From a virus: a DNA stretch of 37,380 bases. Below the pieces are notes generated by a model. The model was given only the letters and a program-made list of their open reading frames with translations. It did not search any database and was not told where the DNA came from. Within the stretch, counting starts at the first letter, position 1. Every line of letters begins with the position of its first letter. A program made the translations under genes and the position numbers. The stretch is taken from UHGV virus genome UHGV-0349822; one strand, 5' to 3'. Shown here in pieces: positions 2,052-24,252 of the stretch.

Positions 2052-2077
2052 TGCTTAATAGTCTCCTATGCGCATCG

Positions 2078-2150: not shown

Positions 2151-2175
2151 TTGCGTGTTTTTTGGAATTCATTCG

Positions 2176-2499: not shown

Positions 2500-2908
2500 G
2501 CACATCCGCATGGCGATGAATGCTTGGGCATACCCTGATGGTGAGAAAGTTCCTGCAGCTGAAATAGCCCGGACTTATTTCGAACTGGGGATGACGTTCC
2601 CTGAACTGTACGACGACAGCCATCCGGAAGCCCTGGCCCGTAATACACAGAAAATTTTCCGTTGGCTGGATAAAGACACCCCTGATGCTGTTGAAAAAAT
2701 TCAGGCTCTGTTACCGGCGATCGAAAAGGCAATGCCGCCTCTGCTGGTGGCCCGTATGCGCAGTCACAGCTCTGAGTATTACCGGGAGATTGTCGAACGG
2801 CGGGATCGGCTGGTGAAGGATGTCGACGATTTTGTTGCGTCAGCGGTTGTTTTGTATGACCAGATGAATCGCGGCGGCCCGGCAGGGAATGCTGTGGTGA
2901 TGCACTAA
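2483..2908 (+). CDS. YdaT/CII-like regulatory protein
   Basis: 141 aa starting MKIKHEHI..., as remembered for the Rac prophage YdaT family; overlaps the upstream gene stop. Confidence 0.55.
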   Translation: MKIKHEHIRMAMNAWAYPDGEKVPAAEIARTYFELGMTFPELYDDSHPEALARNTQKIFRWLDKDTPDAVEKIQALLPAIEKAMPPLLVARMRSHSSEYYREIVERRDRLVKDVDDFVASAVVLYDQMNRGGPAGNAVVMH

Positions 2909-2930
2909 AAGCACGGTGTTCGGGGGTTTT

Positions 2931-3893
2931 ATGAGCAGCAAGCTTCATGGTCTTGTCTGGGAAGGGTGCGCCTTCACCGGCATGATCTTATCCAGGGTGG
3001 CGGTTATGGCCCGTCTTGCAGACTACAGCAATGACGAGGGCGTGTCATGGCCTGCCATTGAAACTATCCGGCGTCAGATCGGTGCAAGAAGTGAATCCAC
3101 AGTGAAATCGGCTATTGCAGAACTGGCGAAAGAGGGCTGGCTGACGAAGGAAGAGCGTAAGGTCGGTGGGCGTAATGTAAGCAATATCTATCGACTTAAT
3201 GTGGAAAAACTCGAAGCAGCTGCGGCGGCGGCGCGTGAGTCATATAAACCGAAAAGAAAAATTAGCCCGGCAAAAAATGACCCGTTAACAGTTGACCCGT
3301 CAAATATTGACCCCTCAACGGTTGACCCGTCAAATTTTGATGGATCAACTGTTGATAAAAAACTGCCGATTAGGGGGGCGATGATTGACCCCGATCCGTC
3401 AGTATTAAAACCTGATCCGTCAGATAAAAGATCTTCTTGTCCGGACGCTTCGCAACCGGACCCGCAGACGGCTGAACAGGATTTTTTAACCCGACACCCT
3501 GACGCGGTTGTGTTCAGTGCGAAAAAACGCCAGTGGGGAAGTCAGGAAGATTTGGTGTGCGCACAGTGGATCTGGGGACGAATCGTGAGTCTTTACGAGC
3601 AGGCGGCCAGCTATGATGGCGAGATCACTAGACCGAAAGAACCCAACTGGACAGCATGGGCCAATGACGTTCGCACAATGCGGATGCTGGATGGCAGAAC
3701 TCACAGACAAATTTGTGAAATGTTTGGGCGTCTCCAGCGGGATTCGTTCTGGGTAAAAAACATCATGAGTCCGGCAAAACTCCGGGAAAAATGGGATGAA
3801 CTGGTTATCCGCCTGGGGCGTTCGCCTGCGCAGCGTTGCGTGAATCACATTTCTGAACCGGACACTGAAATTCCGCCGGGCTTCAGGGGGTAA
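2931..3893 (+). CDS. replication initiator (lambda O-like N-terminal DNA-binding domain; linker encodes origin iterons)
   Basis: ORF in track; start chosen at ATG 2931 after a GGGGG Shine-Dalgarno; 5-aa periodic peptide (DPLTV DPSNI DPSTV DPSNF DGSTV) coincides with a 15-bp DNA repeat array. Confidence 0.7.
   Translation: MSSKLHGLVWEGCAFTGMILSRVAVMARLADYSNDEGVSWPAIETIRRQIGARSESTVKSAIAELAKEGWLTKEERKVGGRNVSNIYRLNVEKLEAAAAAARESYKPKRKISPAKNDPLTVDPSNIDPSTVDPSNFDGSTVDKKLPIRGAMIDPDPSVLKPDPSDKRSSCPDASQPDPQTAEQDFLTRHPDAVVFSAKKRQWGSQEDLVCAQWIWGRIVSLYEQAASYDGEITRPKEPNWTAWANDVRTMRMLDGRTHRQICEMFGRLQRDSFWVKNIMSPAKLREKWDELVIRLGRSPAQRCVNHISEPDTEIPPGFRG
3276..3425. repeat. origin-of-replication iteron array inside the initiator gene
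   Basis: Tandem 15-bp units, with GTTGACCCGTCAAAT exact at 3291-3305 and 3321-3335 plus variants (ATTGACCCCTCAACG, TGATCCGTCAG), followed by an AT-rich stretch at 3421-3437. Confidence 0.6.
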
Positions 3894-3933
3894 GTGTTAA
3901 TTTCTGGTCATGAGGTAATTTTCAGGAGGGCTT

Positions 3934-4356
3934 GTGGCAAAAGTTTTTACACAAGAAGAGCGGGAAAAAATTAAAGGGCAGGTTGTTGAACTCGTACGCC
4001 AGAGTGGGCGCGAGACGTTACGACAACTGGAAACTAAAACTGGGGCAACAAGATATCTGATGAGCGTTCTGGCCAGAGAGCTGGTTGCCAGCGGCGATGT
4101 ATACAACTCCGGCTACGGGTTATTCCCCTCTGAACAGGCGCGTAAGGACTGGCAAAACGCCCGCAAAAAACTCTCGAGGGCAAAGGTGAAGAAACCTGCT
4201 GTGGTTGATCCGGACCTTATCTGGTCATCACCTGACGGAGAAATACGTCGCTACGACAGTCGCCTAAACATAATCTGTCGCGAGTGCCGGAAGAGTGAAG
4301 CTATGCAGCGTGTACTGGCTTTCTATCAGGGTAATTTTCAGGAGGCGGTACTGTGA
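3934..4356 (+). CDS. hypothetical early protein (140 aa)
   Basis: ORF in track, GTG start after AGGAGG; flanked by a 16-bp direct repeat GGTAATTTTCAGGAGG (3914-3929 and 4329-4344). Confidence 0.5.
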   Translation: MAKVFTQEEREKIKGQVVELVRQSGRETLRQLETKTGATRYLMSVLARELVASGDVYNSGYGLFPSEQARKDWQNARKKLSRAKVKKPAVVDPDLIWSSPDGEIRRYDSRLNIICRECRKSEAMQRVLAFYQGNFQEAVL

Positions 4357-4413
4357 GTGAAATTAGCTATCAGGCTTCAATTACCGCTGGCATTCGCATC
4401 AAAGGAGAGGAGC

Positions 4414-4770
4414 ATGGAAATAAAACCAGAGGATGAGTTAAGCAATATCGTTTTATTTCCGGTAAAAGAGGATGACCCTCGTAATCAGGTTAATTTTCTT
4501 TATGAGCCATCGGAAAGACCATATTGTCATCACGCCTCTGTCCGGGTTGACGAAAAAGAGCGTCAGGTCCGCTGTAAAATCTGCGGTGCAGTTGTGGAGC
4601 CATTTGACTGGATGCTCTCTGTGGCGAAAAGAGAAACCAGACTGGCAGATGATGTAAGGCTCTTGCGTCAAGAGGAGCGGGAAAGGCGAAAAAATATAGA
4701 AAAGCTAATTCAGATTGAGCGTAACGCGAAAGCGCGGATACGCAGGGCGACAAAATCCAGAACTGAATAA
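4414..4770 (+). CDS. hypothetical protein with C-x2-H...C-x2-C zinc-ribbon-like motif and basic coiled-coil tail
   Basis: In-frame ATG at 4414 after a GGAGAGGAG Shine-Dalgarno within track ORF 4357-4770; motif PYCHH...CKICG. Confidence 0.5.
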   Translation: MEIKPEDELSNIVLFPVKEDDPRNQVNFLYEPSERPYCHHASVRVDEKERQVRCKICGAVVEPFDWMLSVAKRETRLADDVRLLRQEERERRKNIEKLIQIERNAKARIRRATKSRTE

Positions 4771-4863
4771 TTAAATTTAGCTCTGTTAAAAATTTAATCC
4801 TTAACCGGAGGGATTTCTGCACCCTCAGAACATCAGGAGGCCGCCCGAAAGGGCGGTAGTTAA

Positions 4864-5046
4864 ATGCGAAAGTTTAAAATAATTATTGAAACGGGAATAG
4901 CCGGTGGAGATTTCGAGGATGAATTCGAAGTGGATGATGATGCGACGCCTGATGAAATACATGACGAAGCAAAAGATATTTTCTTTAACTACTGCAATTA
5001 CTCATATCACGAAATAAAAGACGAAGAGGAAGAACAAAATGGCTGA
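4864..5046 (+). CDS. small highly acidic protein (60 aa)
   Basis: ORF in track; D/E-rich (FEDEFEVDDDATPDEIHDE...EIKDEEEEQ); GC-rich GNRA hairpin lies between its Shine-Dalgarno and ATG. Confidence 0.45.
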   Translation: MRKFKIIIETGIAGGDFEDEFEVDDDATPDEIHDEAKDIFFNYCNYSYHEIKDEEEEQNG

Positions 5047-5215
5047 TTTTGGTTCAACTAAATACAACGTCAGTTTTGAAGAATGGCATGAACTGTTAAT
5101 GGACTATGCAGAGTTACGTGGTGGCAGTGCTGCTGATGCTGAAGCATGGCGTGATGATTATGAAGCAGGAAAAACTCCGGTCGAAGCATATTGTGATGAG
5201 TGGGGCGATGAATGA
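5039..5215 (+). CDS. small acidic protein (58 aa)
   Basis: ATG 5039 overlaps the upstream stop; translation MADFGSTKYNVSFEEWHELLMDYAELRGGSAADAEAWRDDYEAGKTPVEAYCDEWGDE; stop TGA at 5213-5215 overlaps the next ATG. Below the ORF-track length cutoff. Confidence 0.4.
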   Translation: MADFGSTKYNVSFEEWHELLMDYAELRGGSAADAEAWRDDYEAGKTPVEAYCDEWGDE

Positions 5216-5479
5216 GCGAGGTTAATTATCAGGAAGGGCATGAAACGGCGGGGCAAGCAAAAACAGTGGCATGGCGATATCGCTACGTGAAAAAAAAGGC
5301 GTTACGGACTTTCAGGGGAAGTAGTGGTCTGGTGACTGGAAATATGTACCGAAAAAAGAGGATTGTAACGACAGGCCGAACTATGAAATTCAGGCCTTAT
5401 TCACTGCCCCGCCAGTCCCGGTTACATCAGAAGAACTGGTTAAAGCTGTGCACTTTTATGAACAACTAAAACGCGAAAA
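5212..5479 (+). pseudogene. early gene of unknown function, interrupted by IS2 (3' remainder at 6816-6867) and also split across two frames
   Basis: Two overlapping frames (5212 frame and the frame of ...SGDWKYVPKKEDCNDRPNYEIQALF...VHFYEQLKREN) run into the IS2 end at 5480. Removing IS2 plus one target-duplication copy restores ...LKRENPPASGNLITDSQIRQ*. Confidence 0.4.
5475..5479. repeat. IS2 target-site duplication (GAAAA), copy 1
   Basis: GAAAA directly abuts the IS2 terminus at 5480; identical pentamer at 6811-6815. Confidence 0.8.
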
Positions 5480-5490
5480 TGGATTTGCCC

Positions 5491-6396
5491 CTATATTTCC
5501 AGACACCTGTTATCACTTAACCCATTACTGGCCTGCTGCCGCAGATATTCCCGTGGCGAGCGATAACCCAGTGCACTATGCGGATGCCATTCGTTATAAT
5601 GCTCGAACGCCTCTGCAAGGTTCTTTGCTGCCGTTAACCCGTCTGGTTTAGGCATGATACTGATGTAGTCACGCTTTATCGTTTTCACGAAGCTCTCTGC
5701 TATGCCGTTACTCTCCGGACTCCGCACCGCCGTGTTCTTCGGTTCAAGCCCCAACATCCGGGCAAACTGCCGTGTTTCATTAGCCCGGTAGCATGAACCA
5801 TTATCCGTCAGCCACTCTACTGGAGACGCCGGAAGCTCGTTGCCGAAGCGGCGTTCCACCGCTCCCAGCATGACGTCCTGTACTGTTTCACTGTCGAAGC
5901 CGCCCGTAGTGACTGCCCAGTGCAGTGCCTCACGGTCACAGCAGTCCAGCGCGAACGTGACTCGCAGTTTTTCTCCGTTATCACAGCGGAACTCGAACCC
6001 GTCAGAGCACCATCGTTGATTGCTTTCTTTCACGGCCACTTTGCCAGTATGTGCCCGTTTCGATGGCGGTACAGCGGTTTTTCGCTCAAGCAACAGCGCA
6101 TTCTGTCGCATGATCCGGTAAACACGTTTGGCATTGATCGCAGGCATACCATCAAGTTCGGCCTGTCTGCGAAGCAGCGCCCATACCCGACGATAACCAT
6201 ACGTGGGCAGCTCTCCGATAACATGGTGTATACGGAGAAGCACATCCGTATCATCTGAGTGACGGCTGCGGCGACCATCTTTCCAGTCATCGGTTCGTCT
6301 GAGAATTACGTGCAACTGCGCACGCGACACCCGGAGACAACGGCTGACTAAGCTTACTCCCCATCCCCGGGCAATAAGGGCGCGTGCGCTATCCAC
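5491..6396 (-). CDS. insD: IS2 transposase OrfB (InsD), DDE domain
   Basis: 301-aa ORF in track; recognised as the IS2 OrfB sequence. Confidence 0.9.
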
Positions 6397-6719
6397 TTTT
6401 TTGCACGCCCGTATTCAACGGCTTCTTTAAGGAGTTCATTTTCCATCGTTTTTTTGCCGAGCAGGCGCTGGAGTTCTTTAATCTGCTTCATGGCAGCAGC
6501 AAGTTCAGAGGCAGGAACGACCTGCTCTCCTGCGGCCACAGCAGTAAGACTTCCCTCCTGGTATTGCTTGCGCCAGAGAAATAACTGGCTGGCTGCCACA
6601 CCGTGTTGCCGGGCAACAAGGGAGACCGTCATTCCCGGTTCAAAACTCTGCTGAACAATAGCGATCTTTTCCTGTGTAGTACGCCGTCTGCGTTTCTCCG
6701 GTCCTAAGACATCAATCAT
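6354..6719 (-). CDS. insC: IS2 OrfA (InsC), HTH DNA-binding transposase component
   Basis: Track ORF 6354-6764 trimmed to the [13 protein letters not shown]... start (121 aa); overlaps insD as in the IS2 OrfA/OrfB frameshift arrangement. Confidence 0.9.
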
Positions 6720-6810
6720 CTGCTCTCCAATGACTAGTCTAAAAACTAGTATTAAGACTATCACTTATTTAAGTGATATTGGTTGTCTGGAGATTCAGGG
6801 GGCCAGTCTA

Positions 6811-6815
6811 GAAAA
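6811..6815. repeat. IS2 target-site duplication (GAAAA), copy 2
   Basis: Identical to 5475-5479, directly abutting the other IS2 end. Confidence 0.8.
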
Positions 6816-7034
6816 TCCACCAGCATCCGGAAACCTGATTACAGATTCCCAGATAAGGCAATGAGCTACCTGGCGCAGAACGGGCTGATAAGTATGGGGA
6901 ATGTTTTACGATGAATATTTAGACTAAAGAGTTTGTAACGCTATGTAAGTGATTTTTTCTGGTTTAGATATTTATATATCCGGCCAAATTGAGGTGTGTT
7001 TAAATGTAATTGCACATTGATTGTAGGAGGAATA

Positions 7035-7214
7035 ATGAAAAACGCATTGCAGTTTTTGTTTGTTGCGTTCTGGTTGTTCGTATCATGTATGCCCATCATC
7101 TTCACAGCAAGGTATATGGAAAAAGTTGATGTTTTGATATTAATATTTGGATATATAAATGCCCTTTTTTTAGGGGTGTTCATGGCGGTCATGTGCATTG
7201 AATACTGGCGGTAA
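7035..7214 (+). CDS. small two-helix hydrophobic membrane protein (about 60 aa)
   Basis: In-frame ATG at 7035 with AGGAGG Shine-Dalgarno (track ORF 6996-7214); MKNALQFLFVAFWLFVSCMPIIF...LILIFGYINALFLGVFMAVMCIEYWR; AT-rich locus. Confidence 0.4.
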   Translation: MKNALQFLFVAFWLFVSCMPIIFTARYMEKVDVLILIFGYINALFLGVFMAVMCIEYWR

Positions 7215-7473
7215 ATACAGCGAACGCCATTGGTTTAGTTGGATATTTACTGTGCCGGACAAAAACGGTTTGCGGGGAAATCTTAGTTAAGTAGAATGAC
7301 TGCGGGTGCTTGAGGCTATCTGTCTCAGGCATGAACACCAAAAGGCAGATAGAGAAAAGCCCCAGTTAACATTACGCGTCCTGCAAGACGCTTAACATTA
7401 ATCTGAGGCCATATCTATGCTCTACACACGTAGGTTAGCCTCTTACGTGCCGAAAGGCAAGGAGAAGCAGGCT

Positions 7474-7629
7474 ATGAAGCAGCAAAAGGCGATGCTAATC
7501 GCCCTGATCGTCATCTGTTTAACCGTCATAGTGACGGCACTGGTAACGAGGAAAGACCTCTGCGAGGTACGAATCCGAACCGGCCAGACGGAGGTCGCTG
7601 TCTTCACAGCTTACGAACCTGAGGAGTAA
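7474..7629 (+). CDS. hok: Hok/Gef-family membrane toxin (51 aa)
   Basis: MKQQKAMLIALIVICLTVIVTALVTRKDLCEVRIRTGQTEVAVFTAYEPEE shows the Hok signature (TM helix, conserved C...EVR...EVA.F.AYE); AAGGAGAAG Shine-Dalgarno; in-frame upstream ATG at 7417. Confidence 0.8.
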   Translation: MKQQKAMLIALIVICLTVIVTALVTRKDLCEVRIRTGQTEVAVFTAYEPEE

Positions 7630-7696
7630 GAGACCAGGCGGGGGAGAATCCCTCGCCACCTCTGATGTGTCAGGCATCCTCAACGCACCCGCACTT

Positions 7697-7723
7697 AACC
7701 CGCTTCGGCGGGTTTTGTTTTTT
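7697..7723 (+). terminator. intrinsic terminator downstream of hok
   Basis: AACCCGC-TTCG-GCGGGTT hairpin followed by TTGTTTTTT. Confidence 0.55.
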
Positions 7724-9137: not shown

Positions 9138-9497
9138 ATGCTCATAGATTTGGTTTTACCTTACCCGCCGACGGTGAACACTTACTGGCGACGCCGTGGC
9201 AGCACATATTTTGTATCAAAAGTCGGTGAGCGTTATCGCCGTGATGTGGCGCTTATTGTTCGCCAGCAGCAACTGAAATTAAACCTGTCCGGAAGGCCGG
9301 CAATAGAAATTATTGCAGAGCCACCGGATAAGCGCCGTCGTGACCTGGACAATATCCTGAAGGCACCACTGGATGTACTGACGCATGCGGGGCTGCTCAT
9401 AGACGACGAGCAGTTTGATGAAATTAATATTGTGCGCGGTCAGCTTGTTCCTGGTGGGCGGTTGGGGATAAAAATCACAGAACTGGAGTATGCATGA
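9138..9497 (+). CDS. rusA: Holliday-junction resolvase RusA
   Basis: 119 aa; RusA-like motifs (YPPTVNTYW...RRRDLDN...GGRLGIKITE) comparable to E. coli RusA. Confidence 0.85.
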   Translation: MLIDLVLPYPPTVNTYWRRRGSTYFVSKVGERYRRDVALIVRQQQLKLNLSGRPAIEIIAEPPDKRRRDLDNILKAPLDVLTHAGLLIDDEQFDEINIVRGQLVPGGRLGIKITELEYA

Positions 9498-10183
9498 ATA
9501 ACCAGTATTTACAGTTTGTTCGTGAGCAACTCATGATTGCCACCGCCGATTTGAGTGGATCAACAAAAGGGCAGCTTGAGGCCTGGCAGGAGAATGCCAT
9601 GTTTGATACAGGGCGTTACAGGCGTAAAAAAATCCGGTACCGCGATGAAGTGACTGGAAAAATGATAACGCGGGATAATCCACCAATCCCGGGAAAGCAA
9701 TCGCTGGCGAAGGGGGCGTCAATTCCTCTCGTCAGTCCGGTTGAGTTTTTGACATCATCGTGGCGGCGGGCTGTTCTGTCTCTTGAAGAACATCATAAAG
9801 CCTGGTTGTTGTGGTGTTACAGCGGGAGTATTTGTTGGGAATATCAGATCGCGATAACGCAGTGGGTGTGGAATGAATTTAAAACCCGGTACGGCACCAG
9901 AAAAATTGCAGGGAAAACGCAGGAGCGCGTGAAGAAGTTGATCTGGCTGGCGGCACAGGATGTCAGAGGATGGATTACCGGGTGTGAGGTCTACCAGAGA
10001 CAGGAGCTTGCCAGACTGTGTGGAGTTAAGCCTGATAACTGGAGCCATAATTATGCGAACTACTGGCGTGAGATGTGCGATATTTTTAAGAGTCTCGATA
10101 GAGAATCTGTGATTTGCACCGTGAAAATAAGAGCGCAACAAAAAGCGATTTTTTCACGACGAGATATTGCAAAAGTCAATTAA
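9494..10183 (+). CDS. putative late-gene antiterminator (Q-like)
   Basis: 229 aa; ATGA overlap with rusA; followed by a promoter-like segment and a short hairpin with a T8 run (tR'-like), then the late-gene block. Position-based call. Confidence 0.45.
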   Translation: MNNQYLQFVREQLMIATADLSGSTKGQLEAWQENAMFDTGRYRRKKIRYRDEVTGKMITRDNPPIPGKQSLAKGASIPLVSPVEFLTSSWRRAVLSLEEHHKAWLLWCYSGSICWEYQIAITQWVWNEFKTRYGTRKIAGKTQERVKKLIWLAAQDVRGWITGCEVYQRQELARLCGVKPDNWSHNYANYWREMCDIFKSLDRESVICTVKIRAQQKAIFSRRDIAKVN

Positions 10184-10242
10184 ATAGCGTACGTTTCGTA
10201 TAAATCTGATATTTTGCCGATTTTGTACGCGATGGCAAAGTA

Positions 10243-10275
10243 AGAAAAAAAACTGCCGTCAGGCGGTTTTTTTTA
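10243..10275 (+). terminator. tR'-like intrinsic terminator downstream of the Q-like gene
   Basis: A8 run, short GC hairpin (CTGCC-GTCA-GGCGG), then T8 run; a candidate pR' (TTGCCG ... ) lies just upstream. Confidence 0.45.
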
Positions 10276-10396
10276 TGCCCAAAATCGCGTCAGCACAGTA
10301 AACACGCTGGTGGTTGCGAATACGGGTCTTTCAGCTTGCTGGCTTTTTCGACAAGAGTTATTGGTATGTCACGTTAACCGGAAAAAGGAAAAAGAC

Positions 10397-10594
10397 ATGC
10401 TAAAACAGCAGGATATGACAGAAACCGCCAGAGTGGTGTTTAATGAATTAAGCGTTACCGAACCGGCGACAGTCGGGGAGATAGCGCAGAATACTTACCT
10501 TTCACGCGAACGCTGCCAGTTAATACTGACTCAGCTGGTTATGGCGGGTCTGGCAGACTATCAGTTCGGTTGTTACAGACGCCTTCCGCAGTGA
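10397..10594 (+). CDS. small hypothetical protein (about 65 aa)
   Basis: In-frame ATG at 10397 after GGAAAAAGGAAAAAG within track ORF 10310-10594. Confidence 0.35.
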   Translation: MLKQQDMTETARVVFNELSVTEPATVGEIAQNTYLSRERCQLILTQLVMAGLADYQFGCYRRLPQ

Positions 10595-10621
10595 AGGCTT
10601 TTTTATTTGTGGTAAATGGGC

Positions 10622-10652
10622 GGCTGGTGGGTGTTAGGGGCACCCACCAGCC
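10622..10652. other. perfect 12-bp-stem hairpin (GGCTGGTGGGTG / CACCCACCAGCC) with 7-nt loop, no flanking U-run
   Basis: Read directly from the sequence; lies between the small ORF and the methyltransferase gene. Confidence 0.5.
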
Positions 10653-10744
10653 ATCTGCTCATGCGTTGGGTTCACAAGCAAACCTCAGGCCCACTGCTTT
10701 GCGCAAAAGCAGAATGAGCCTATCAGAGACAGGCTTAATGATCC

Positions 10745-11794
10745 ATGCTTAATACTGTAAAAATATCCAGTTGTGAGTTAATCAACGCCGACTGCCTGGA
10801 ATTTATCCGGTCGTTACCCGAAAATTCTGTTGACCTGATAGTCACGGACCCGCCGTACTTTAAAGTGAAGCCTGAGGGCTGGGATAACCAGTGGAAGGGC
10901 GACGATGATTACCTGAAGTGGCTGGACCAGTGTCTGGCGCAGTTCTGGCGGGTGCTGAAACCTGTCGGAAGTCTTTACCTGTTCTGTGGTCATCGCCTGG
11001 CATCTGATATCGAAATCATGATGCGTGAACGCTTCAGTGTGCTGAACCATATTATCTGGGCGAAGCCGTCCGGACGCTGGAACGGATGCAACAAGGAAAG
11101 CCTGCGGGCGTATTTCCCCGCCACAGAGCGCATTCTGTTCGCGGAACATTATCAGGGGCCGTATCGTCCGAAAGATGCCGGGTATGCGGCGAAGGGCAGT
11201 GCACTGAAACAGCATGTGATGGCCCCGCTGATTTCTTACTTTCGTGATGCGCGCGCGGCCCTGGGGATAACGGCAAAACAGATTGCAGATGCCACAGGAA
11301 AGAAAAACATGGTGTCGCACTGGTTCAGTGCCAGTCAGTGGCAGCTACCGAACGAAAGCGATTATCTGAAATTACAGTCGCTGTTTGCCCGGGTGGCAGA
11401 AGAGAAACATCAGCGCGGTGAACTGGAAAAGCCCCACCACCAGCTGGTGGATACGTATACGTCACTGAACCGGCAGTATGTGGAGCTGCAGAGTGAATAT
11501 AAGCATCTGCGGCGGTATTTTGGTGTGACGGCGCAGGTGCCGTACACGGATGTGTGGACACATAAACCGGTGCAGTTCTATCCCGGGAAACATCCGTGCG
11601 AAAAACCGGCAGAAATGCTGCAGCAGATAATCAGCGCAAGCAGTCGTCCGGGTGACCTGGTTGCAGATTTTTTTATGGGCTCAGGTTCAACGGTAAAAGC
11701 TGCACTGGCGCTCGGGCGTCGTGCGATTGGCGTTGAACTGGAGACCGGACGTTTTGAGCAGACAGTCAGGGAAGTTCAGGATTTAATCGTTTGA
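10745..11794 (+). CDS. DNA amino-methyltransferase (N6-adenine or N4-cytosine), beta-class motif order
   Basis: 349 aa; DPPY catalytic motif near the N-terminus (LIVTDPPYF) and AdoMet-binding FxGxG (DFFMGSGST) near the C-terminus. Confidence 0.8.
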   Translation: MLNTVKISSCELINADCLEFIRSLPENSVDLIVTDPPYFKVKPEGWDNQWKGDDDYLKWLDQCLAQFWRVLKPVGSLYLFCGHRLASDIEIMMRERFSVLNHIIWAKPSGRWNGCNKESLRAYFPATERILFAEHYQGPYRPKDAGYAAKGSALKQHVMAPLISYFRDARAALGITAKQIADATGKKNMVSHWFSASQWQLPNESDYLKLQSLFARVAEEKHQRGELEKPHHQLVDTYTSLNRQYVELQSEYKHLRRYFGVTAQVPYTDVWTHKPVQFYPGKHPCEKPAEMLQQIISASSRPGDLVADFFMGSGSTVKAALALGRRAIGVELETGRFEQTVREVQDLIV

Positions 11795-11843
11795 AACGGA
11801 TGAGATTGCAGAATTAATTACGCACCATTATTATTCTGCTTCC

Positions 11844-11919
11844 GGCCCTTTAGCTCAGTGGTGAGAGCGAGCGACTCATAATCGCCAGGTCGCTGGTTCA
11901 AATCCAGCAAGGGCCACCA
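11844..11919 (+). tRNA. tRNA with CAU anticodon (likely Ile2/ileZ-like, AUA-decoding after lysidine modification; could be Met)
   Basis: 76 nt; acceptor stem GGCCCTT/AAGGGCC, anticodon loop CUCAUAA, T-arm GGTTCAAATCC, 3' CCA. Confidence 0.8.
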
Positions 11920-12019
11920 TCACAAACCGCCATTAGCTTATCAGGAAGAGCAGACGACACGATAACAGGGTTGTTGGTGCGGGGGCGGGTCCCCGATGGC
12001 GGTCCATTATCGGTATTCA

Positions 12020-12096
12020 GCGTTGTTAGCTCAGCCGGACAGAGCAATTGCCTTCTAAGCAATCGGTTACTGGTTCGAATCCAGTACAGCGCGCCA
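12020..12096 (+). tRNA. tRNA-Arg (anticodon UCU, AGA-decoding)
   Basis: 77 nt; acceptor GCGTTGT/ACAGCGC, anticodon loop CUUCUAA, T-arm GGTTCGAATCC, 3' CCA. Confidence 0.8.
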
Positions 12097-12203
12097 TATT
12101 CATTCTTCCAGATTCCTTTCGGCAGAGCCTTATACTGAAATATACCTGGCTCAGGATATTGTTGAAAATATTATATGTTTGTCAAAAATAAAAGTTCTGT
12201 TAA

Positions 12204-12560
12204 GTGTTGATTGAGAGTTTGTTATACGGTCTAATGGTTTTTTCAGCATTAAATATTTATCATTCATATGGTGTGGGTAGAGTGAATATTGATGAGGCGT
12301 CGGGGTGTTTCATCCTTAGGCAGCGTATTGATATAGTCAATGCAGAACGAGCAAAGGCCTTCAGCCGTTTGACAGTTTTGTTCTGTACTCCTGATCGTCT
12401 TTCGGGAAGAGACGTTATTATTCTGAATAGTGATGCTATACAGAGGGTTTGCGATGAGTTCATGGTGGCTAATTCAGAATTATTTGCTCTTGTTCAGGAG
12501 TACAACAGAATAGCCAGGACCTGTGGTATGGATGAACTTCGGATTACTCATCTGGGGTAG
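12204..12560 (+). CDS. hypothetical cargo protein (118 aa) at the stx-equivalent locus
   Basis: ORF in track (GTG start; alternative ATG at 12233); AT-rich; same orientation as late genes. Confidence 0.35.
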   Translation: MLIESLLYGLMVFSALNIYHSYGVGRVNIDEASGCFILRQRIDIVNAERAKAFSRLTVLFCTPDRLSGRDVIILNSDAIQRVCDEFMVANSELFALVQEYNRIARTCGMDELRITHLG

Positions 12561-12951
12561 ATACATATCTGGATTATCACCGGTTACGGTAAAAAGTGAT
12601 TGCTTACTGTTTTTGTGAATGGCATTGCAGCAGCCGGATAATGTCAGTGCTGGCTGACGGTGTGCTGGTGGCGGGTGTGGTGGTTGCTGCTTTCCCGTTG
12701 CTGAAAAAGAAAACGCCAGACTGTTAGCCGGGTATCAGTTAGCGGGAGAAATTTTTAAATACTTCACAATTCAGGCGGTTGACTGTTGTCTGGTTTGCGG
12801 GGAGTTTGTTAAAAGAAACTGGCATGGTGAATCCCCCTGTGCGGAGGGGCAATCAGCGAGTAGGTATATGGGATAATCGCGGATTCAGGTGCTGGTACTG
12901 AATTCACCGGGAGGCACCCGGCACCATGCAATGGCACATAGCGCCACTCTC

Positions 12952-12980
12952 CAGCCCCTCTCCGGAGGGGCTGTTTATAT
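12952..12980 (+). terminator. intrinsic terminator
   Basis: 9-bp stem CAGCCCCTC/GAGGGGCTG with TCCG loop, followed by TTTATATTGATTTT. Confidence 0.45.
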
Positions 12981-13007
12981 TGATTTTGTCAGATGTGAGT
13001 AAACTCC

Positions 13008-13343
13008 TTATGGACTTTGTTGTTTTAGCCCATAAGGACATATTTGCAGAGTGCAACGGTTATTAAAGCATTCATTCAATACGTTATCTGTATTTGTAGG
13101 GCATTCCTGGCTGTTTTTGATTAAATTCCAGAATGTTTTATTGAATGGTACTACGTTGTAAATGGTTACAGGCAGCACTTTGTTATTGAGCATGATGCCT
13201 GTGTGAGTCAGTGTAAATATACTTTCAGGAGGTAAGAAAGCATCCGATTGATACCAGATTATTAATTTTATTTTACTCCATATGACTGAAAAAGATATTC
13301 CGCATGATGGCTGGATAACTGTATCAATCACAATCCACTTCAT
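13008..13343 (-). CDS. hypothetical cargo protein (111 aa), antisense to late transcription
   Basis: ORF in track; AT-rich; convergent with ORF 12204-12560. Confidence 0.3.
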
Positions 13344-13588
13344 TTAGTTTCCTTGTTTATGCCTTGCTGGTGATGTTCTGAAAAGTATAAATGATATTTT
13401 TGATTGTAAACCATAGAGCAGAATTATTTTTCTGATGTTGTTTATTGTTTATTTAAATGCAGGGTGGTTTATATCTCGTCTTGTAGTTTATCCATGCATA
13501 TCTGCTTGATGATGAGGTTTTTAATTAAGGTATGGTTTTGTGTTTTTTCTGTATTACATGTCAGGTATTTTAAAGAATCATTTTTCAG

Positions 13589-15457
13589 ATGGTGGAAAGA
13601 ACCATGGCATTTAAACACTATGATGTTGTCAGGGCGGCGTCGCCGTCAGATCTTGCGGAAAAGCTGACACATAAACTGAAAGAGGGCTGGCAGCCGTTTG
13701 GTAGTCCGGTGGCCATAACCCCTTATACCCTGATGCAGGCGATTGCAGCAGAAGGTGATGTGGTCGTCAGTGGTGCAACTGAGCCGGAGTGGTACTACGT
13801 CATCGTACTGGCCGGGCAGTCCAATGCCATGGCTTACGGTGAAGGGCTTCCGCTTCCGGATTCATACGATGCGCCCCATCCGCGCATTAAGCAACTGGCC
13901 CGTCGTAACACAGTGACTCCCGGTGGTGAAGTATGCGTATTTAACGACATCATTCCTGCTGACCATTGTCTGCATGATGTTCAGGATATGAGTACGATTA
14001 ACCATCCCCGGGCTGACCTGAGCAAAGGGCAGTACGGCTGTGTCGGACAGGGCTTACATATTGCCAAAAAACTGCTTCCGTATATCCCTAATAACGCGGG
14101 GATCCTGCTGGTACCATGCTGTCGTGGTGGTTCGGCATTCACCCAGGGCACGGAGGGGACATTCAGCGAGTCCACGGGGGCCAGTCAGGATTCGGCTCGC
14201 TGGGGAGTGGGTAAGCCGTTATATCAGGATCTGCTTTTCCGCACGAAGGCAGCATTGCAGAAAAACCCGAAAAACGTTTTGCTGGCGATATGCTGGATGC
14301 AGGGGGAATTCGATATGACGAATGCCAGTTACGCCCAGCAGCCAGCAGCATTTCTTGCAATGGTACAGCAGTTCCGTGCTGACCTTGCCGGGCTGGCGGC
14401 GCAGTGTCACGGTGGAAGTCCGGCATCAGTCCCCTGGATTTGTGGCGACACGACATACGCGTGGAAACAAGAACACGGTACGCAATATGAAGTGGTATAT
14501 GGTGCATATAAAGGTAAAGAATCCCAGCAGATTTATTTTGTTCCCTTTATGACCGATGGTAGCGGAGTTAATACACCGACAAACAACCCGTCAGAAGATC
14601 CTGATATTGTCGGGTCTGGTTATTACGGTTCGGCATCCCGAACGAACAAAAACTGGGTATCATCAAATCGCCCGACGCATTTCAGCTCATGGGCGCGTCG
14701 TGGCATTATTCCCGATCGTATGGCAACCGCTATTCTGAACGCAGCCGGGCGCACCTCAGCCTTCATCAGTGGTAAGGCACCGGAAATCAAACCCTCGCCC
14801 GGCGGCGACACGCCATCGGGTCCGTCTGCAGATACGTCCGTTCGCACAATCTCCCTGCTGCCGACAGCCGGAGAGGCTGCTGCGCAGGGCTGGAGCATTA
14901 AGAATGGCGGAATTCAGTTGTCAGATGGTGTATTTAAGATCACCAAGCAGAGCAATAAAGCCTGGTCCCTGACGCGCCCGGTGGATGACGCAGTCTCCCT
15001 GCTGACACGGGGTGGCAGACTGAGCTGTAAGTTTCGACTGTCAGGCGCACTGACCAACAACCAGTTCGGTCTGGGAATTTATCTGTATACCGATGTAGCG
15101 TTACCTGACGTCGTGGCGATGACCGGGACTGGTAACCCGTTCCTGATGTCGTTCTTCACCCAGACCACAGACGGCAAACTGAATCTGATGCATCACAAGA
15201 AAGCCGGAAACACAAAGTTGGGCGAGTTCGGGAATTACAGTAACGACTGGCAGACGCTGGAGCTGGTGTTCACCGCCGGCAGTGCCACGGTTACTCCGAA
15301 ACTGAATGGAGTGGCTGGCCCGGCATTCCAGGTCATAAAAGACAGTCTGACAGTGGGACTAAATGCACTGACGCTGACGGATATTACCAAAAATGCAACG
15401 TATGGCGTTGAGATAGAAAGTCTGGTGCTGGAGATAAATGCACCGGCATCATCATAA
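13589..15457 (+). CDS. prophage sialate O-acetylesterase-like protein (DUF1737 N-terminus + SGNH esterase), like the nanS-p gene found downstream of stx in Stx phages
   Basis: 622 aa; GQSN block ([14 protein letters not shown]) typical of sialate O-acetylesterases; located immediately before the holin. Start may be the second ATG at 13604. Confidence 0.75.
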
Positions 15458-17601: not shown

Positions 17602-18222
17602 ATGAAAGATCAAGATGTTAGGTTCGCGGTGCATCATAAGCTTTTGAAAGAATCGCATTTAGATCCAGACTGCCTTGTGGTCGATGAATTTTCCATATCC
17701 CTTGGCGCCAGTAGAGCAGACATTGCTGTAATAAATGGTGTTATACACGGGTACGAGCTCAAAAGTGAATATGACTCTTTGGAGCGTTTGCCTCTTCAAA
17801 TCAAGCATTATTCTTCTGTAATGGACAAGGTTACTCTTGTCGTAGCTGAGAAACATCTTGAGGGAGCATTAAAGTTAATCCCAGGTTGGTGGGGCGTTAA
17901 AACGGTTTCTGTTGGGCCAAAAGGCGCCATTCTTATAAAGCACATGCGTGGAGAAAAGCTTAATCGAAACCATGACACATTGATGCTCGCTCAATTGCTT
18001 TGGAAAGATGAATGTATCGACGTACTTGAACGATGGGGCTATTCCAAAGGAATCAAAAGCAAGCCCCGATTTGAGTTATGGAATATTATTGCGGAAAATA
18101 TTCCAATAGCGAATCTCAGGCTTGAAGTCAGAACAGCCTTAAAGAAACGCGTAGGCTGGAAAGTTAAGGCTTGGCAGGCTGAGTCTGCGCCAACCAATAA
18201 AGCTGTTTCACGACTAACGTAA
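17602..18222 (+). CDS. cargo protein A (206 aa) with PD-(D/E)xK-like motif (putative restriction-endonuclease-fold nuclease)
   Basis: AGGAGAAG Shine-Dalgarno; motif E29...D40-x11-E52-L-K54 (VVDEF...RADIAVINGVIHGYELK); AT-rich, with several ATA/AGA/AGG codons. Confidence 0.6.
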   Translation: MKDQDVRFAVHHKLLKESHLDPDCLVVDEFSISLGASRADIAVINGVIHGYELKSEYDSLERLPLQIKHYSSVMDKVTLVVAEKHLEGALKLIPGWWGVKTVSVGPKGAILIKHMRGEKLNRNHDTLMLAQLLWKDECIDVLERWGYSKGIKSKPRFELWNIIAENIPIANLRLEVRTALKKRVGWKVKAWQAESAPTNKAVSRLT

Positions 18223-19231
18223 TATGGTGCGTATGTGCAACTTTACGCCATTCTTTAGAGCCGCCAGATTTGTTAGCGCCTAATGATCTTTGGTAAATGT
18301 AATCATCCCCCCAACTAAATTTGGAACCAAAGACTTGATACTCTGGCGAACTAACAAGGGTAGTACATAAGTTTTTAGTTTGGCCCCATCCATTTCCTTT
18401 AACTGCGGTACCTTTTACAAAGATCCATGAGGTATCGTTCGAATATCTCACTGAGACATACTGAGACATGAAGCGTGGGTCTACGCTCGTAATGGTAGAG
18501 CTAGCGGTGGGATAATCACTAAAACTTGGCGTTCTTCCATTGCTAAAATTCTGTACTACGTGCATCCAAAGATCGTATTCATGGCGCGGAATATGATGAA
18601 CTTGATGTTGCGGTATCCCTGCCTGTGATGCTGGGTATGCGGTTGAAGATAAAATCAAGTTTCTCCACGGAGCTTGGCCTGATAATGTGTTGACCATGCT
18701 TAATGCTTGTTGTTTTAAACTATCAGTTGCGTTTTGAATATCTCCAAAATCAATGATTACATCAATTAAACTAGGATGAATATTTAAGTGGTTAACCAGA
18801 CTTGTGAATTGGTGCCATGTCTGGGGGGTGATAGATATAGCGAGCCCATTGATTAAGTTGCGTTGAACAGCATGTATATAGTTTGTTGAATATGCGGGAG
18901 AAACAACAGGGATAATTTCCTTACCATTTACTCTAGCATCTTGGATACACATATCTAGAGGATGATGGCGGCTCGAACCATGTTTATCTAAATATTTAAC
19001 ATCCAGCAAAACAGGACGATTGGCTTTCCAGGATGCCGCAAGGTTAATACCGAAGTCAGATAAGTAAGAACTCAAACTCTTCTTGTAGCATTCGTTTTCA
19101 TAATCCCAGTCTATGTCTGGAATGGTAATGATCGGAGTAAAACCAGAGAGCGTAGTTTGATCTAAAAGCATCAGAGATTCATATTCAGCAGGCTTCCATT
19201 TCAGCTGTGGATAATATTGATGTTGACTCAT
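18164..19231 (-). CDS. cargo protein B (355 aa), unknown function, convergent partner of protein A
   Basis: ORF in track with AAGGAG Shine-Dalgarno 7 nt upstream of ATG; AT-rich; 3' end overlaps protein A by 59 bp. Confidence 0.6.
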   Translation of the reverse strand: MSQHQYYPQLKWKPAEYESLMLLDQTTLSGFTPIITIPDIDWDYENECYKKSLSSYLSDFGINLAASWKANRPVLLDVKYLDKHGSSRHHPLDMCIQDARVNGKEIIPVVSPAYSTNYIHAVQRNLINGLAISITPQTWHQFTSLVNHLNIHPSLIDVIIDFGDIQNATDSLKQQALSMVNTLSGQAPWRNLILSSTAYPASQAGIPQHQVHHIPRHEYDLWMHVVQNFSNGRTPSFSDYPTASSTITSVDPRFMSQYVSVRYSNDTSWIFVKGTAVKGNGWGQTKNLCTTLVSSPEYQVFGSKFSWGDDYIYQRSLGANKSGGSKEWRKVAHTHHITLVVKQLYWLAQTQPAKP

Positions 19232-22757: not shown

Positions 22758-24252
22758 TCTTTCACACATTATTGCAGCAGCATTCAATGAACCGCTGCTT
22801 CTGGAGCCCGCCTATGCGCGGGTTTTCTTTTGCGCGCTGGGGCGCGAGATGGGGGCAGCAAGTCTTTCGGTACCGCAACAGCAGGTACAGCTTGATGCTC
22901 CCGGGATGCTGGCTGAAACGGACGAGTACATGGCCGGAGGTAAACGACCGGCCCGTGTTTACCGGGTGGTGAACGGTATTGCGGTACTGCCGGTGACCGG
23001 CACGCTGGTGCACCGGCTGGGGGGGATGCGGCCATTTTCCGGAATGACTGGCTATGACGGCATTGTCGCCTGTCTTCAGCAGGCAATGGCAGATAGCCAG
23101 GTGCGGGGCATACTGCTGGACATTGACAGTCCGGGCGGGCAGGCCGCCGGCGCGTTTGACTGCGCTGACATGATTTACCGCCTCCGGCAGCAGAAGCCGG
23201 TCTGGGCACTGTGTAATGACACGGCCTGTTCTGCGGCCATGCTGCTGGCGTCGGCCTGCTCCCGACGGCTGGTTACCCAGACATCCCGTATCGGTTCCAT
23301 TGGCGTGATGATGAGCCATGTCAGCTATGCCGGTCATCTGGCGCAGGCCGGTGTGGATATCACGCTGATTTACTCAGGGGCGCACAAGGTGGATGGCAAT
23401 CAGTTTGAAGCGTTGCCGGCAGAGGTTCGCCAGGACATGCAGCAGCGGATTGATGCGGCGCGCCGGATGTTTGCCGAAAAAGTGGCGATGTTTACCGGTC
23501 TGTCTATTGATGCAGTCACGGGAACAGAGGCCGCTGTTTTTGAAGGTCAGTCCGGCATTGAGGCCGGGCTGGCGGATGAATTAATCAATGCGTCGGATGC
23601 CATCAGTGTGATGGCCACGGCGCTGAACAGTAATGTCAGAGGAGGCACTATGCCGCAATTAACTGCAACGGAAGCCGCCGTGCAGGAGAACCAGCGAGTG
23701 ATGGGGATCCTGACATGCCAGGAAGCGAAAGGACGTGAACAGCTTGCCACGATGCTGGCAGGGCAACAGGGCATGAGCGTTGAACAGGCCCGGGCGATTC
23801 TGGCCGCGGCGGCACCGCAGCAGCCGGTGGCATCCGCGCAGAGTGAAGCCGATCGCATTATGGCGTGTGAAGAAGCGAACGGTCGTGAACAACTGGCGGC
23901 AACGCTGGCGGCGATGCCGGAGATGACGGTGGAAAAAGCCCGCCCGATCCTGGCGGCTGCACCACTGGCGGATGCCGGGCCCTCACTTCGTGATCAGATC
24001 ATGGCCCTGGATGAGGCAAAAGGGGCAGAAGCGCAGGCTGAAAAACTGGCGGCCTGCCCGGGAATGACCGTGGAGAGCGCCCGGGCTGTGCTGGCTGCGG
24101 GATCAGGTAAGGCAGAACCGGTCTCTGCATCCACAACCGCCCTGTTTGAACATTTCATGGCGAACCATTCACCGGCTGCGGTCCAGGGGGGCGTGTCACA
24201 GGCGTCAGAAGACGGTGATGCGGACGTGAAAATGCTCATGGCCATGCCATGA
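22747..24252 (+). CDS. C: head maturation protease / scaffold gpC (S49 family)
   Basis: 501 aa; GTG start; matches lambda gpC (AFNEPLLLEPAYARVFF, GIAVLPVTGTLV, VWALCND, TLIYSGAHKVDGN). Confidence 0.85.
   Translation: MRRNLSHIIAAAFNEPLLLEPAYARVFFCALGREMGAASLSVPQQQVQLDAPGMLAETDEYMAGGKRPARVYRVVNGIAVLPVTGTLVHRLGGMRPFSGMTGYDGIVACLQQAMADSQVRGILLDIDSPGGQAAGAFDCADMIYRLRQQKPVWALCNDTACSAAMLLASACSRRLVTQTSRIGSIGVMMSHVSYAGHLAQAGVDITLIYSGAHKVDGNQFEALPAEVRQDMQQRIDAARRMFAEKVAMFTGLSIDAVTGTEAAVFEGQSGIEAGLADELINASDAISVMATALNSNVRGGTMPQLTATEAAVQENQRVMGILTCQEAKGREQLATMLAGQQGMSVEQARAILAAAAPQQPVASAQSEADRIMACEEANGREQLAATLAAMPEMTVEKARPILAAAPLADAGPSLRDQIMALDEAKGAEAQAEKLAACPGMTVESARAVLAAGSGKAEPVSASTTALFEHFMANHSPAAVQGGVSQASEDGDADVKMLMAMP
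23690..24110 (+). repeat. three tandem in-frame copies of a roughly 45-aa module in the C-terminal scaffold region of gpC
   Basis: RVMGILTCQEAKGREQLATMLAGQQGMSVEQARAILAAA / RIMACEEANGREQLAATLAAMPEMTVEKARPILAAA / QIMALDEAKGAEAQAEKLAACPGMTVESARAVLAAG; lambda C is remembered as having one copy. Confidence 0.5.

What the first reader, a model, noticed from the sequence alone, without database searches (positions are those of the whole stretch)
12097..13588. AT-rich cargo segment at the exact locus where Stx phages carry stx, but with no toxin genes
The order Q-like gene, methyltransferase, tRNAs, cargo, sialate O-acetylesterase-like gene, holin, endolysin, Rz mirrors the late region of Shiga-toxin-converting phages, where stxAB lie between the tRNAs and the esterase gene. 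Here that slot holds ~1.5 kb of AT-rich DNA with two convergent ORFs (12204-12560 plus strand, 13008-13343 minus strand), a possible 28-codon hydrophobic ORF (12641-12727, MSVLADGVLVAGVVVAAFPLLKKKTPDC) and an intrinsic terminator (12952-12980). Nothing resembles StxA or StxB. Any plus-strand gene here would be expressed from the late promoter under Q control on induction.
Basis: partly seen in the sequence, partly recalled or inferred. Interest (0 to 1): 0.6.

Follow-up and report, generated by a model that had tools for sequence, protein, structure and literature searches.

The report
Known iraL/STnc100 cargo in Stx-phage slot
The stretch where Shiga-toxin phages carry their toxin genes here holds already-described cargo: the stress-response regulator gene iraL, a known small RNA (STnc100) and two small conserved genes of unknown function, so it is real but largely ordinary.

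Summary
Window 12097-13588 lies between the phage tRNAs and the nanS-p-like esterase gene of a lambdoid prophage whose late region is built like a Stx phage. It is AT-rich (GC 0.40 vs 0.52) and has no Stx similarity.

It is not anonymous DNA:
- The minus-strand ORF 13008-13343 is IraL, identical in protein to the characterised RssB anti-adaptor of CFT073. The published transcription start maps to 13376.
- The "terminator" is the 3' hairpin of the sRNA STnc100 (12793-12982, 132 bits), called EcOnc27/sRNA103 where it lies 3' of stx2B.
- The "28-codon ORF" belongs to a DUF3927 (TciB-like) micro-protein gene (12596-12727).
- The first ORF is a real gene, probably 12282-12560 (92 aa, phrog_2873, dN/dS 0.24), of unknown function.

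Backbone comparison with phage Stx2_EH2201 shows that only 12105-12763 (orf92 + DUF3927) replaces stx2AB. iraL occupies a neighbouring sub-slot between STnc100 and the esterase gene. Stx2c phages and some Stx2a phages carry both stx2 and an IraM-like gene there.

The whole slot is 97% identical in CFT073. At least 80% of it is present in 863 of 5,426 complete E. coli genomes. Low novelty; orf92 and DUF3927 remain unexplained.

The parts
11844..11919 (+). tRNA with CAT anticodon (ileZ-like; PGAP calls it tRNA-Ile, ARAGORN tRNA-Met). Part of the conserved left flank of the slot.
   Evidence: same tRNA in 933W
11927..12003 (+). Degenerate remnant of the middle (argN-like) tRNA. The acceptor stem is kept but the anticodon arm is scrambled. 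Neither ARAGORN nor Rfam calls it.
   Evidence: sequence comparison by eye with CFT073 L008 4923-4999 and 933W argN; searches give no tRNA call
12020..12096 (+). tRNA-Arg (TCT), argO-like. Homology to Stx-phage backbones ends 8-13 bases after it (12104-12109).
12105..12763 (+). Variable cassette. This is the true positional counterpart of stx2AB, bounded by conserved flanks (tRNA-Arg on the left, STnc100 on the right).
   Evidence: blastn breakpoints against L004, L007, L012, L013 on the left (12104-12109) and L003, L004, L007, L009, L012, L013 on the right (12755-12764):
12282..12560 (+). orf92: conserved small protein of unknown function (phrog_2873), predicted helical hairpin. GTG 12282 is the likelier start.
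   Evidence: dN/dS 0.24 in frame against 1.1-1.3 in the shifted frames, third-position bias 41 vs 19/18, no indels; PHROG E 2.5e-58; homologues of 91-95 aa start here; PGAP calls the 92-aa form in ETEC4075; AlphaFold pLDDT 83.6
12596..12727 (+). One predicted hydrophobic helix followed by KKK.
   Evidence: Pfam PF13064 92.7 bits; phrog_1470; PGAP WP_001438304.1; alignment with JLK-2012 TciB
12793..12982 (+). STnc100 sRNA (RF02076), the family that includes Hfq-binding EcOnc27/sRNA103 found 3' of stx2B.
   Evidence: Rfam 132.4 bits, full model 1-206; same element after stx2B in 933W, 2851 and Stx2_EH2201; PMC12711010, PMC12370729
12952..12973 (+). GC-rich hairpin followed by TTTATATT: the intrinsic terminator and 3' end of STnc100.
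13008..13343 (-). iraL, the RssB anti-adaptor. The protein is identical to CFT073 IraL (c1429, WP_000871291.1).
   Evidence: NCBIfam NF007393 162 bits vs cutoff 121; identical translation to CFT073; same WP accession; 62% identical to K-12 IraM; PDB 8twd IraM E 9e-32
13344..13420 (-). iraL 5' UTR and promoter. The TSS is at 13376, with a -10-like TATACT at 13384-13389 and a -35-like TTTACA at 13405-13410, read on the minus strand. Region 13344-13603 is 30% GC.
   Evidence: The published 5'-RACE sequence matches 31/32 at 13376-13345 (PMC4045071). The hexamers are my own reading of the sequence.
13604..15457 (+). nanS-p-like esterase gene (DUF1737 + SASA + DUF6645), the conserved right flank of the slot.

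Best explanation
The segment is the accessory-gene ('moron') slot of a Qin/Stx-like lambdoid prophage. It consists of two independently exchangeable sub-slots separated by a conserved sRNA gene.

Sub-slot 1 (12105-12763) is the position stx2AB occupies in Stx2 phages. It carries orf92 and a DUF3927 micro-protein gene, both co-oriented with the late operon. They would therefore be transcribed by Q-modified RNA polymerase after induction (inferred). Their function is unknown.

STnc100 (12793-12982) follows. It is an EcOnc27-type sRNA whose 3' hairpin ends the cassette's transcripts when Q is absent (inferred).

Sub-slot 2 (about 12983-13603) carries iraL, transcribed leftward from its own sigma-70 promoter (TSS 13376) against the late operon. 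[quoted passage not shown] This was shown for the identical protein in CFT073. iraL is therefore a lysogenic-conversion gene acting in the uninduced lysogen. Late transcription on induction would run antisense through it (inferred).
For: Identity of the parts. IraL is identical to CFT073's and the RACE-mapped TSS matches 31/32. IraL function, TSS and distribution come from PMC4045071. Its expression is up in a fur mutant (PMC7157518) and on a shift to 37 C (PMC12890032). The whole slot 11805-13823 is 97% identical in CFT073.

Modularity: mEp460_ev081 shares 11805-12930 only. The vB_EcoS phages share 12764-13823 only. JLK-2012 goes from STnc100 straight to the esterase gene. Stx2_EH2201 shares 10249-12104 at 93% and then 12764 onward, with stx2AB in between. 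An STnc100 copy lies between the cargo and the esterase gene (or its remnant) in eight of the nine comparison loci that keep one, and ends only a few bases before the convergent AsxR or iraM-like gene in 933W, Stx2_EH2201 and 2851.

Coding selection on orf92.

Prevalence: iraL is in 1,446 of 5,426 complete E. coli genomes, the orf92 region in 1,312, and at least 80% of the full composite in 863.
Against: No expression data were examined for this window. Q-dependent read-through, termination at the STnc100 hairpin and antisense interference with iraL are all inferences. The consensus promoter scan found no more sites than shuffled sequence gives (7 vs 5.6 +/- 2.3), so an independent promoter for orf92/DUF3927 is undemonstrated. 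PGAP does not call orf92 in ST648, CFT073 or OkiPb01694. The start codons of orf92 (12282, 12204 or 12235) and DUF3927 (12596 or 12641) are unresolved. STnc100 scores lower here (132 bits) than in 933W (208 bits) and lacks part of the central region. The hairpin is not followed by a T-run on the minus strand, so how iraL transcripts terminate is unclear.
Confidence: 0.88

Rival explanations
1. Non-coding filler or a degenerate remnant: the slot is decayed DNA left after loss of stx or other genes, and the ORFs are chance frames.
For: PGAP leaves 12097-12595 unannotated and marks a pseudo-CDS at 12812-12937. The middle tRNA is degenerate. The region is AT-rich.
Against: All four elements match curated families well above threshold. 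orf92 shows purifying selection. IraL is experimentally characterised (PMC4045071). There is no residual stx similarity at the DNA or protein level. The pseudo-CDS overlaps STnc100 on the opposite strand and is probably an annotation artefact.
Confidence: 0.03
2. iraL is the functional replacement of stx: one cargo gene swapped for another at the same insertion point, so that Stx and IraL are alternative payloads.
For: iraL is reported as less frequent in EHEC/STEC than in commensals (PMC4045071).
Against: Stx2c phages and some Stx2a phages carry stx2AB, then STnc100, then an IraM-like gene together in this interval. Homology breakpoints put stx2AB opposite 12105-12763, not opposite iraL. iraL faces the opposite way and has its own promoter, unlike stx.
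Confidence: 0.05
3. orf92 + DUF3927 form a late-expressed functional pair, for example a small membrane toxin or lysis modulator with a partner, or a superinfection-exclusion or defence module. They would then be the slot's real induction-dependent payload, analogous to Stx.
For: They occupy exactly the stx2AB position and orientation. They lie 35 nt apart, and both are conserved in 1,183 genomes at 80% coverage or more. DUF3927 is a hydrophobic one-helix peptide grouped by PHROGs under 'moron / host takeover'. In JLK-2012 the DUF3927 gene sits in the same place after tciA.
Against: Neither protein hits PADLOC or any Pfam family of known function. Fold searches return only generic helical hairpins. 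orf92 moves without DUF3927 (ETEC4075) and DUF3927 without orf92 (JLK-2012), so they are not an obligate pair. The TciB name is an annotation label and, to my knowledge, has no experimental basis.
Confidence: 0.2

Closest known systems
iraL locus of uropathogenic E. coli CFT073 (c1429; 'potB genomic island' prophage), Hryckowian et al. 2014, PMC4045071
   Same: The IraL protein is identical. The 5' UTR and TSS sequence match 31/32. The whole interval from tRNA through orf92, DUF3927, STnc100 and iraL to the esterase N-terminus (11805-13823) is 97% identical and colinear.
   Different: CFT073 has an intact middle tRNA, an IS200C copy upstream of the tRNAs, a different Q gene, no methyltransferase, and a truncated esterase gene with only a DUF1737 remnant. 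DUF3927 differs by one residue.
Late-region cargo slot of Stx2 phages (933W; phage 2851; Stx2_EH2201)
   Same: The scaffold is the same: Q, (methyltransferase), ileZ/arg tRNAs, cargo, STnc100, a convergent small gene, nanS-p esterase, holin, endolysin, Rz. Stx2_EH2201 shares the hypothetical-gene, methyltransferase and tRNA stretch at 93%.
   Different: stx2AB (about 1.37 kb) is replaced by orf92 + DUF3927 (about 0.66 kb). The convergent gene is iraL here. In 2851 and Stx2_EH2201 it is a 107-aa IraM-like subtype, 75% identical to IraL and 65% to K-12 IraM. In 933W it is the anti-sRNA AsxR.
IraM of E. coli K-12 (b1160, beside e14), the Mg2+-starvation anti-adaptor; crystal structure 8twd
   Same: Same protein family (NF007393), 62% identity over 107 residues, conserved N-terminal 80 residues and cysteines. 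Both sit in prophage-derived, AT-rich DNA.
   Different: The genomic context differs, with no STnc100, tRNAs or esterase gene nearby in K-12. Regulation differs: iraL is reported to act in log phase and IraM under low Mg2+. [quoted passage not shown]
STnc100 / PasD family of prophage sRNAs next to sialate esterase genes (bioRxiv 10.64898/2026.05.13.724894; EcOnc27/sRNA103 in PMC12711010)
   Same: Full-length covariance-model match, the same position just upstream of the esterase gene, and a terminal intrinsic terminator.
   Different: The copy here is diverged (71-77% identical to Stx-phage copies) and lacks about 20 nt of the central loop region. Its targets are unknown.

Membership tests
IraM/IraL RssB anti-adaptors (NCBIfam NF007393) | Sequence match to the family model above the curated cutoff | tested here: met
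   162 bits against a cutoff of 121, covering residues 1-110; PDB 8twd IraM E 9e-32
IraM/IraL RssB anti-adaptors (NCBIfam NF007393) | Belongs to the IraL subtype, not IraM: identical or >=95% identical to CFT073 IraL and about 59% to K-12 IraM | tested here: met
   Translation identical to the CFT073 gene; 62% identical to K-12 IraM by BLASTP; the paper reports 58.9% by ClustalW
IraM/IraL RssB anti-adaptors (NCBIfam NF007393) | Conserved iraL promoter and TSS region | tested here: met
   The RACE sequence matches 31/32 at 13376-13345; gene plus upstream region (13008-13480) is 98.9% identical to CFT073
IraM/IraL RssB anti-adaptors (NCBIfam NF007393) | Binds RssB and stabilises sigma-S | not testable with these tools
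   Shown for the identical protein in CFT073 (PMC4045071); not measured for this strain
STnc100 sRNA (Rfam RF02076) | Covariance-model score above the gathering threshold over the whole model | tested here: met
   132.4 bits against 47, model positions 1-206, E 9e-30
STnc100 sRNA (Rfam RF02076) | Position 3' of the cargo and just upstream of the esterase gene in lambdoid prophages | tested here: met
   Same placement in 933W, 2851, Stx2_EH2201, JLK-2012, PPwrbA_EH2201 and CFT073
STnc100 sRNA (Rfam RF02076) | Expressed as a discrete Hfq-binding RNA | not testable with these tools
   Reported for EcOnc27/sRNA103 in O157 (PMC12711010). The fold z-score here is only -2.26.
DUF3927 (Pfam PF13064) / TciB-like phrog_1470 | Match above the Pfam gathering score | tested here: met
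   92.7 bits against 25; phrog_1470 E 1.5e-11. The family has no known function.
phrog_2873 (orf92 family) | Profile match and evidence of coding selection | tested here: met
   E 2.5e-58; dN/dS 0.24; 22 representatives in a library of 1.84 billion proteins
Shiga toxin (StxA / StxB) | Any sequence similarity to Stx2A or Stx2B | tested here: not met
   Best tblastn E 0.21, outside the slot; no DNA similarity to stx2AB
Known anti-phage defence systems (PADLOC) | orf92, DUF3927 or IraL matches a defence-protein model | tested here: not met
   No hits at E <= 0.01
GapR / UPF0335 nucleoid proteins (a lead for orf92) | Significant and consistent sequence or profile match | tested here: not met
   Only marginal PDB profile hits, E 0.04-0.2. 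None of the nine family members hits the corresponding Pfam family. Foldseek gives nothing at E <= 0.001.

The most novel reading that the evidence does not exclude
The interval between the tRNAs and the esterase gene of Stx-like lambdoid phages may be a structured two-bay cassette site, with STnc100 copies acting as the homology anchors that swap payloads. Supporting observations are the recurrent breakpoints at about 12105, 12755-12764, 12975 and 13603, and the duplicated or tandem STnc100 copies in vB_EcoS-640R1 and OkiPb01694. On this reading, orf92 + DUF3927 would be an uncharacterised payload expressed at induction, deployed like Stx2 from the late promoter. IraM-family genes in the second bay, including a third subtype next to stx2B in Stx2c phages, would couple prophage carriage to RpoS stability.
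Probability: 0.2. Interest if true: 0.5.

Novelty: already known. Interest (0 to 1): 0.2.

Why it matters
The result resolves an apparent "mystery cargo at the toxin locus" into known parts. It also corrects the positional reading. The toxin's real counterpart is a pair of small genes of unknown function (orf92 and DUF3927), present in about a fifth of complete E. coli genomes. The RpoS-stabilising anti-adaptor occupies a neighbouring bay that real Stx2c and Stx2a phages also fill with an IraM-like gene. For Stx-phage biology, this means that some toxin phages carry a putative sigma-S stabiliser right beside stx2B. I found no paper in the searched library that discusses this. It is a modest lead and deserves a test.

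Tried and rejected
1. Function of orf92. Pfam, NCBIfam and PADLOC gave nothing. An exhaustive profile search found only a small family with no annotated domains. One 727-aa hit (P0036) looks like a low-complexity or composite protein and was ignored. The AlphaFold model is a helical hairpin. Foldseek against the PDB and BFVD returned only generic coiled-coil matches, none at E <= 0.001. A marginal GapR/UPF0335 lead was not reproduced by per-member Pfam scans and was dropped.

2. The literature search for tciA/tciB returned only Trypanosoma genotype papers. The 'TciB' label stays an unsupported annotation name.

3. The consensus promoter scan was no better than shuffled sequence, so I claim no promoter for orf92/DUF3927.

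4. 'Replacement of stx by iraL' was rejected after stx2AB and an IraM-like gene were found together in phage 2851 and Stx2_EH2201.

5. 'Degenerate remnant of stx' was rejected, because no residual similarity exists.

6. The first Python call failed on file naming and was repeated. One alignment call failed on a stop codon and was repeated.

Full report
OBSERVATION

The window maps coordinate-for-coordinate onto a lambdoid prophage of E. coli ST648 (NZ_CP008697.1). There are only two mismatches before an indel near 19545.
- DUF968 and RusA genes
- Q (9494-10183, PF06323)
- a 65-aa ORF
- N6/N4 DNA methyltransferase (10745-11794)
- tRNA(CAT) 11844-11919 and tRNA-Arg(TCT) 12020-12096
- the slot
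- a DUF1737-SASA-DUF6645 esterase (13604-15457)
- class II holin, DUF1327, lysozyme and Rz

Phage 933W has the same order with stx2A/stx2B between the tRNAs and the esterase gene. The slot is AT-rich overall (GC 0.397 vs 0.519) but not uniformly: 0.39 at the left, 0.55 in the middle and 0.33 at the right. No similarity to Stx2A, Stx2B or their DNA exists anywhere in the window.

WHAT THE PARTS ARE

1. The minus-strand ORF 13008-13343 matches the NCBIfam IraM model (162 bits, cutoff 121). It is 62% identical to K-12 IraM. Its translation is identical to the single IraM-family gene of CFT073, which is iraL (c1429; PMC12890032). The 5'-RACE sequence published for iraL mRNA (PMC4045071) matches 32/32 in CFT073 and 31/32 in the window. 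That places the TSS at 13376, with TATACT and TTTACA hexamers upstream (the hexamers are my reading). [quoted passage not shown]

2. The 'terminator 12952-12980' is the 3' hairpin of a full-length match to Rfam STnc100 (12793-12982, 132 bits, E 9e-30). In 933W this element starts 75 nt after stx2B and is followed by the anti-sRNA AsxR on the other strand. The literature equates it with, or overlaps it with, the Hfq-binding sRNA EcOnc27/sRNA103 (PMC12711010; PMC12370729). It is also linked to the PasD family next to esterase genes (bioRxiv 10.64898/2026.05.13.724894).

3. The 28-codon hydrophobic ORF is the C-terminal two-thirds of a PGAP-annotated 43-aa DUF3927 protein (12596-12727). It scores 92.7 bits in Pfam and matches phrog_1470 'TciB-like'. 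Alignment with JLK-2012 TciB shows a conserved core, SSRIMSVLADGVLVAGVVV.AFPLLKKK, with a different N-terminus. The DNA homology breakpoint (12628) falls inside the gene, so the start codon (12596 or 12641) is unresolved.

4. ORF 12204-12560 has no Pfam or NCBIfam hit and is not called by PGAP in ST648, CFT073 or OkiPb01694. It nevertheless has diverged homologues at 55-64% amino-acid identity. Against the ETEC4075 copy (72% DNA identity), dN/dS is 0.24 in frame and 1.1-1.3 in the other two frames. Differences by codon position are 19/18/41. There are no indels over 92 codons, and the start and stop codons coincide. PGAP calls that copy as a 92-aa protein. More distant relatives are 91-95 aa and align from the same point. 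The match to phrog_2873 has E 2.5e-58. The gene is therefore real and most likely spans 12282-12560 (GTG start). The AlphaFold model is a two-helix hairpin (pLDDT 83.6). Structure and profile searches give no functional lead.

ARCHITECTURE OF THE SLOT

Pairwise blastn against nine other loci gives recurrent breakpoints.
- Stx-phage backbones (933W, PPwrbA_EH2201, 2851, Stx2_EH2201) lose homology at 12104-12109, just after tRNA-Arg. They regain it at 12755-12764, just before STnc100.
- Stx2_EH2201 is 93% identical from 10249 to 12104. Between these two points it has stx2A-stx2B where the window has orf92 and DUF3927.
- So only 12105-12763 is the positional counterpart of stx.
- To the right of STnc100, JLK-2012, 933W and PPwrbA_EH2201 resume at 13603-13611, the esterase start. 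This defines a second bay (about 12983-13603) that holds iraL here and AsxR in 933W.
- In 41 phage records, mostly Stx2c- and Stx2a-converting phages, that bay holds a convergent 107-aa IraM-like gene, 75% identical to IraL and 65% to IraM.
- stx and an IraM-family gene therefore co-occur in one slot, and iraL is not a substitute for stx.
- The left module alone occurs in mEp460_ev081 (11805-12930, 98.5%). The right module alone occurs in the vB_EcoS phages (12764-13823, 96.7%). STnc100 is the shared overlap.
- CFT073 has the complete composite at 97%.

PREVALENCE

iraL plus its promoter is present in 1,446 of 5,426 complete E. coli genomes. The orf92 region is in 1,312, and at least 80% of the full 1.49-kb composite is in 863.

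MECHANISM

Shown elsewhere for the identical protein: IraL is made from its own sigma-70 promoter in the lysogen and blocks RssB-dependent ClpXP degradation of sigma-S.

Inferred from layout:
- orf92 and DUF3927 lie downstream of Q, of a tR'-like hairpin at 10255-10267 followed by a T-run, and of the tRNAs. They would therefore be read by Q-modified polymerase on induction.
- The STnc100 hairpin would stop unmodified polymerase.
- Late transcription would run antisense through iraL.
- None of this was tested here. The consensus promoter scan is uninformative.

COMPARISON AND NOVELTY

The locus is, in effect, the published iraL locus of CFT073 on a slightly different prophage backbone, and every element belongs to a described family. 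The new points are clarifications: the two-bay structure, the corrected orf92 gene model with evidence that it is coding, and the presence of a third IraM/IraL subtype beside stx2B in Stx2c and some Stx2a phages. That subtype is annotated 'iraM' in LC567829, but I found no discussion of it in the papers searched. The functions of orf92 and DUF3927 remain unknown.

VERDICT

Novelty: already known. Interest is low (0.2), with a modest residual lead in orf92/DUF3927 and the Stx-phage IraM-like gene.

Noticed in passing
L009 (E. coli OkiPb01694, NZ_AP042564.1) 3665-3877 and 5637-6616: The same slot in this strain holds five STnc100 copies, four of them in a head-to-tail series about 260-270 bp apart just upstream of the esterase gene. 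It also holds a TolA-like gene, an HTH gene and an unannotated orf92 homologue (5069-5344). vB_EcoS-640R1 (L003) has two STnc100 copies (3561-3754 and 4030-4218).
   Followed up: partly
L012 4501-4824 and L013 4501-4824 (Stx2_EH2201; phage 2851): Stx2c phages and some Stx2a phages encode a 107-aa IraM/IraL-like protein (75% identical to IraL, 65% to K-12 IraM). The gene is convergent with stx2B and separated from it only by STnc100. This third subtype is unannotated in phage 2851, and I found no paper discussing it.
   Followed up: partly
window 17602-19231: An overlapping, oppositely oriented gene pair lies between Rz and the small terminase gene: an sce7726-family protein (+, 17602-18222) and a 'beta family' protein (-, 18164-19231). 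Both hit PADLOC models (cll E 4e-31; PD-Lambda-2_C E 3e-32; beta E 2e-10). It is a candidate anti-phage defence moron in a second cargo slot.
   Followed up: partly
window 11927-12003: This is a degenerate middle tRNA. The acceptor stem (ACCGCCAT...ATGGCGGT) and T-arm are retained, but the anticodon arm is replaced compared with the intact argN-like tRNA of CFT073 and 933W. ARAGORN and Rfam do not call it.
   Followed up: partly
window 12812-12937 (-): PGAP annotates a partial pseudogene 'hypothetical protein' here in ST648 and CFT073. It lies wholly inside STnc100 on the opposite strand and is probably an annotation artefact.
   Followed up: no
window 10184-10270: A hairpin plus T-run at 10255-10267, 72 nt after the Q stop codon, looks like tR'. 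The short pR' transcript would be the counterpart of the StxS-type RNA of Stx phages. A sub-threshold Rfam hit to STnc370 lies on the opposite strand (10240-10315, 43.7 bits vs gathering score 54).
   Followed up: no
window 1-7700: The early region is Qin/Rac-like: dicB with DicF RNA (360-411, minus strand), racR, a YdaT-family toxin gene, and a hokD/sok locus (sok 7304-7479, hokD 7474-7629). An IS3-family element is inserted at about 5491-6719 and truncates an adjacent ORF. In ST648 the S49 head protease gene (23858-25364) is annotated as frameshifted, so the prophage may be defective.
   Followed up: no
L010 (ETEC4075) 5032-5938: Here the orf92 homologue sits after the methyltransferase gene with no tRNAs, DUF3927, STnc100 or esterase gene, and is followed by a convergent DUF1883 gene. 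This shows that orf92 moves as an independent module.
   Followed up: no
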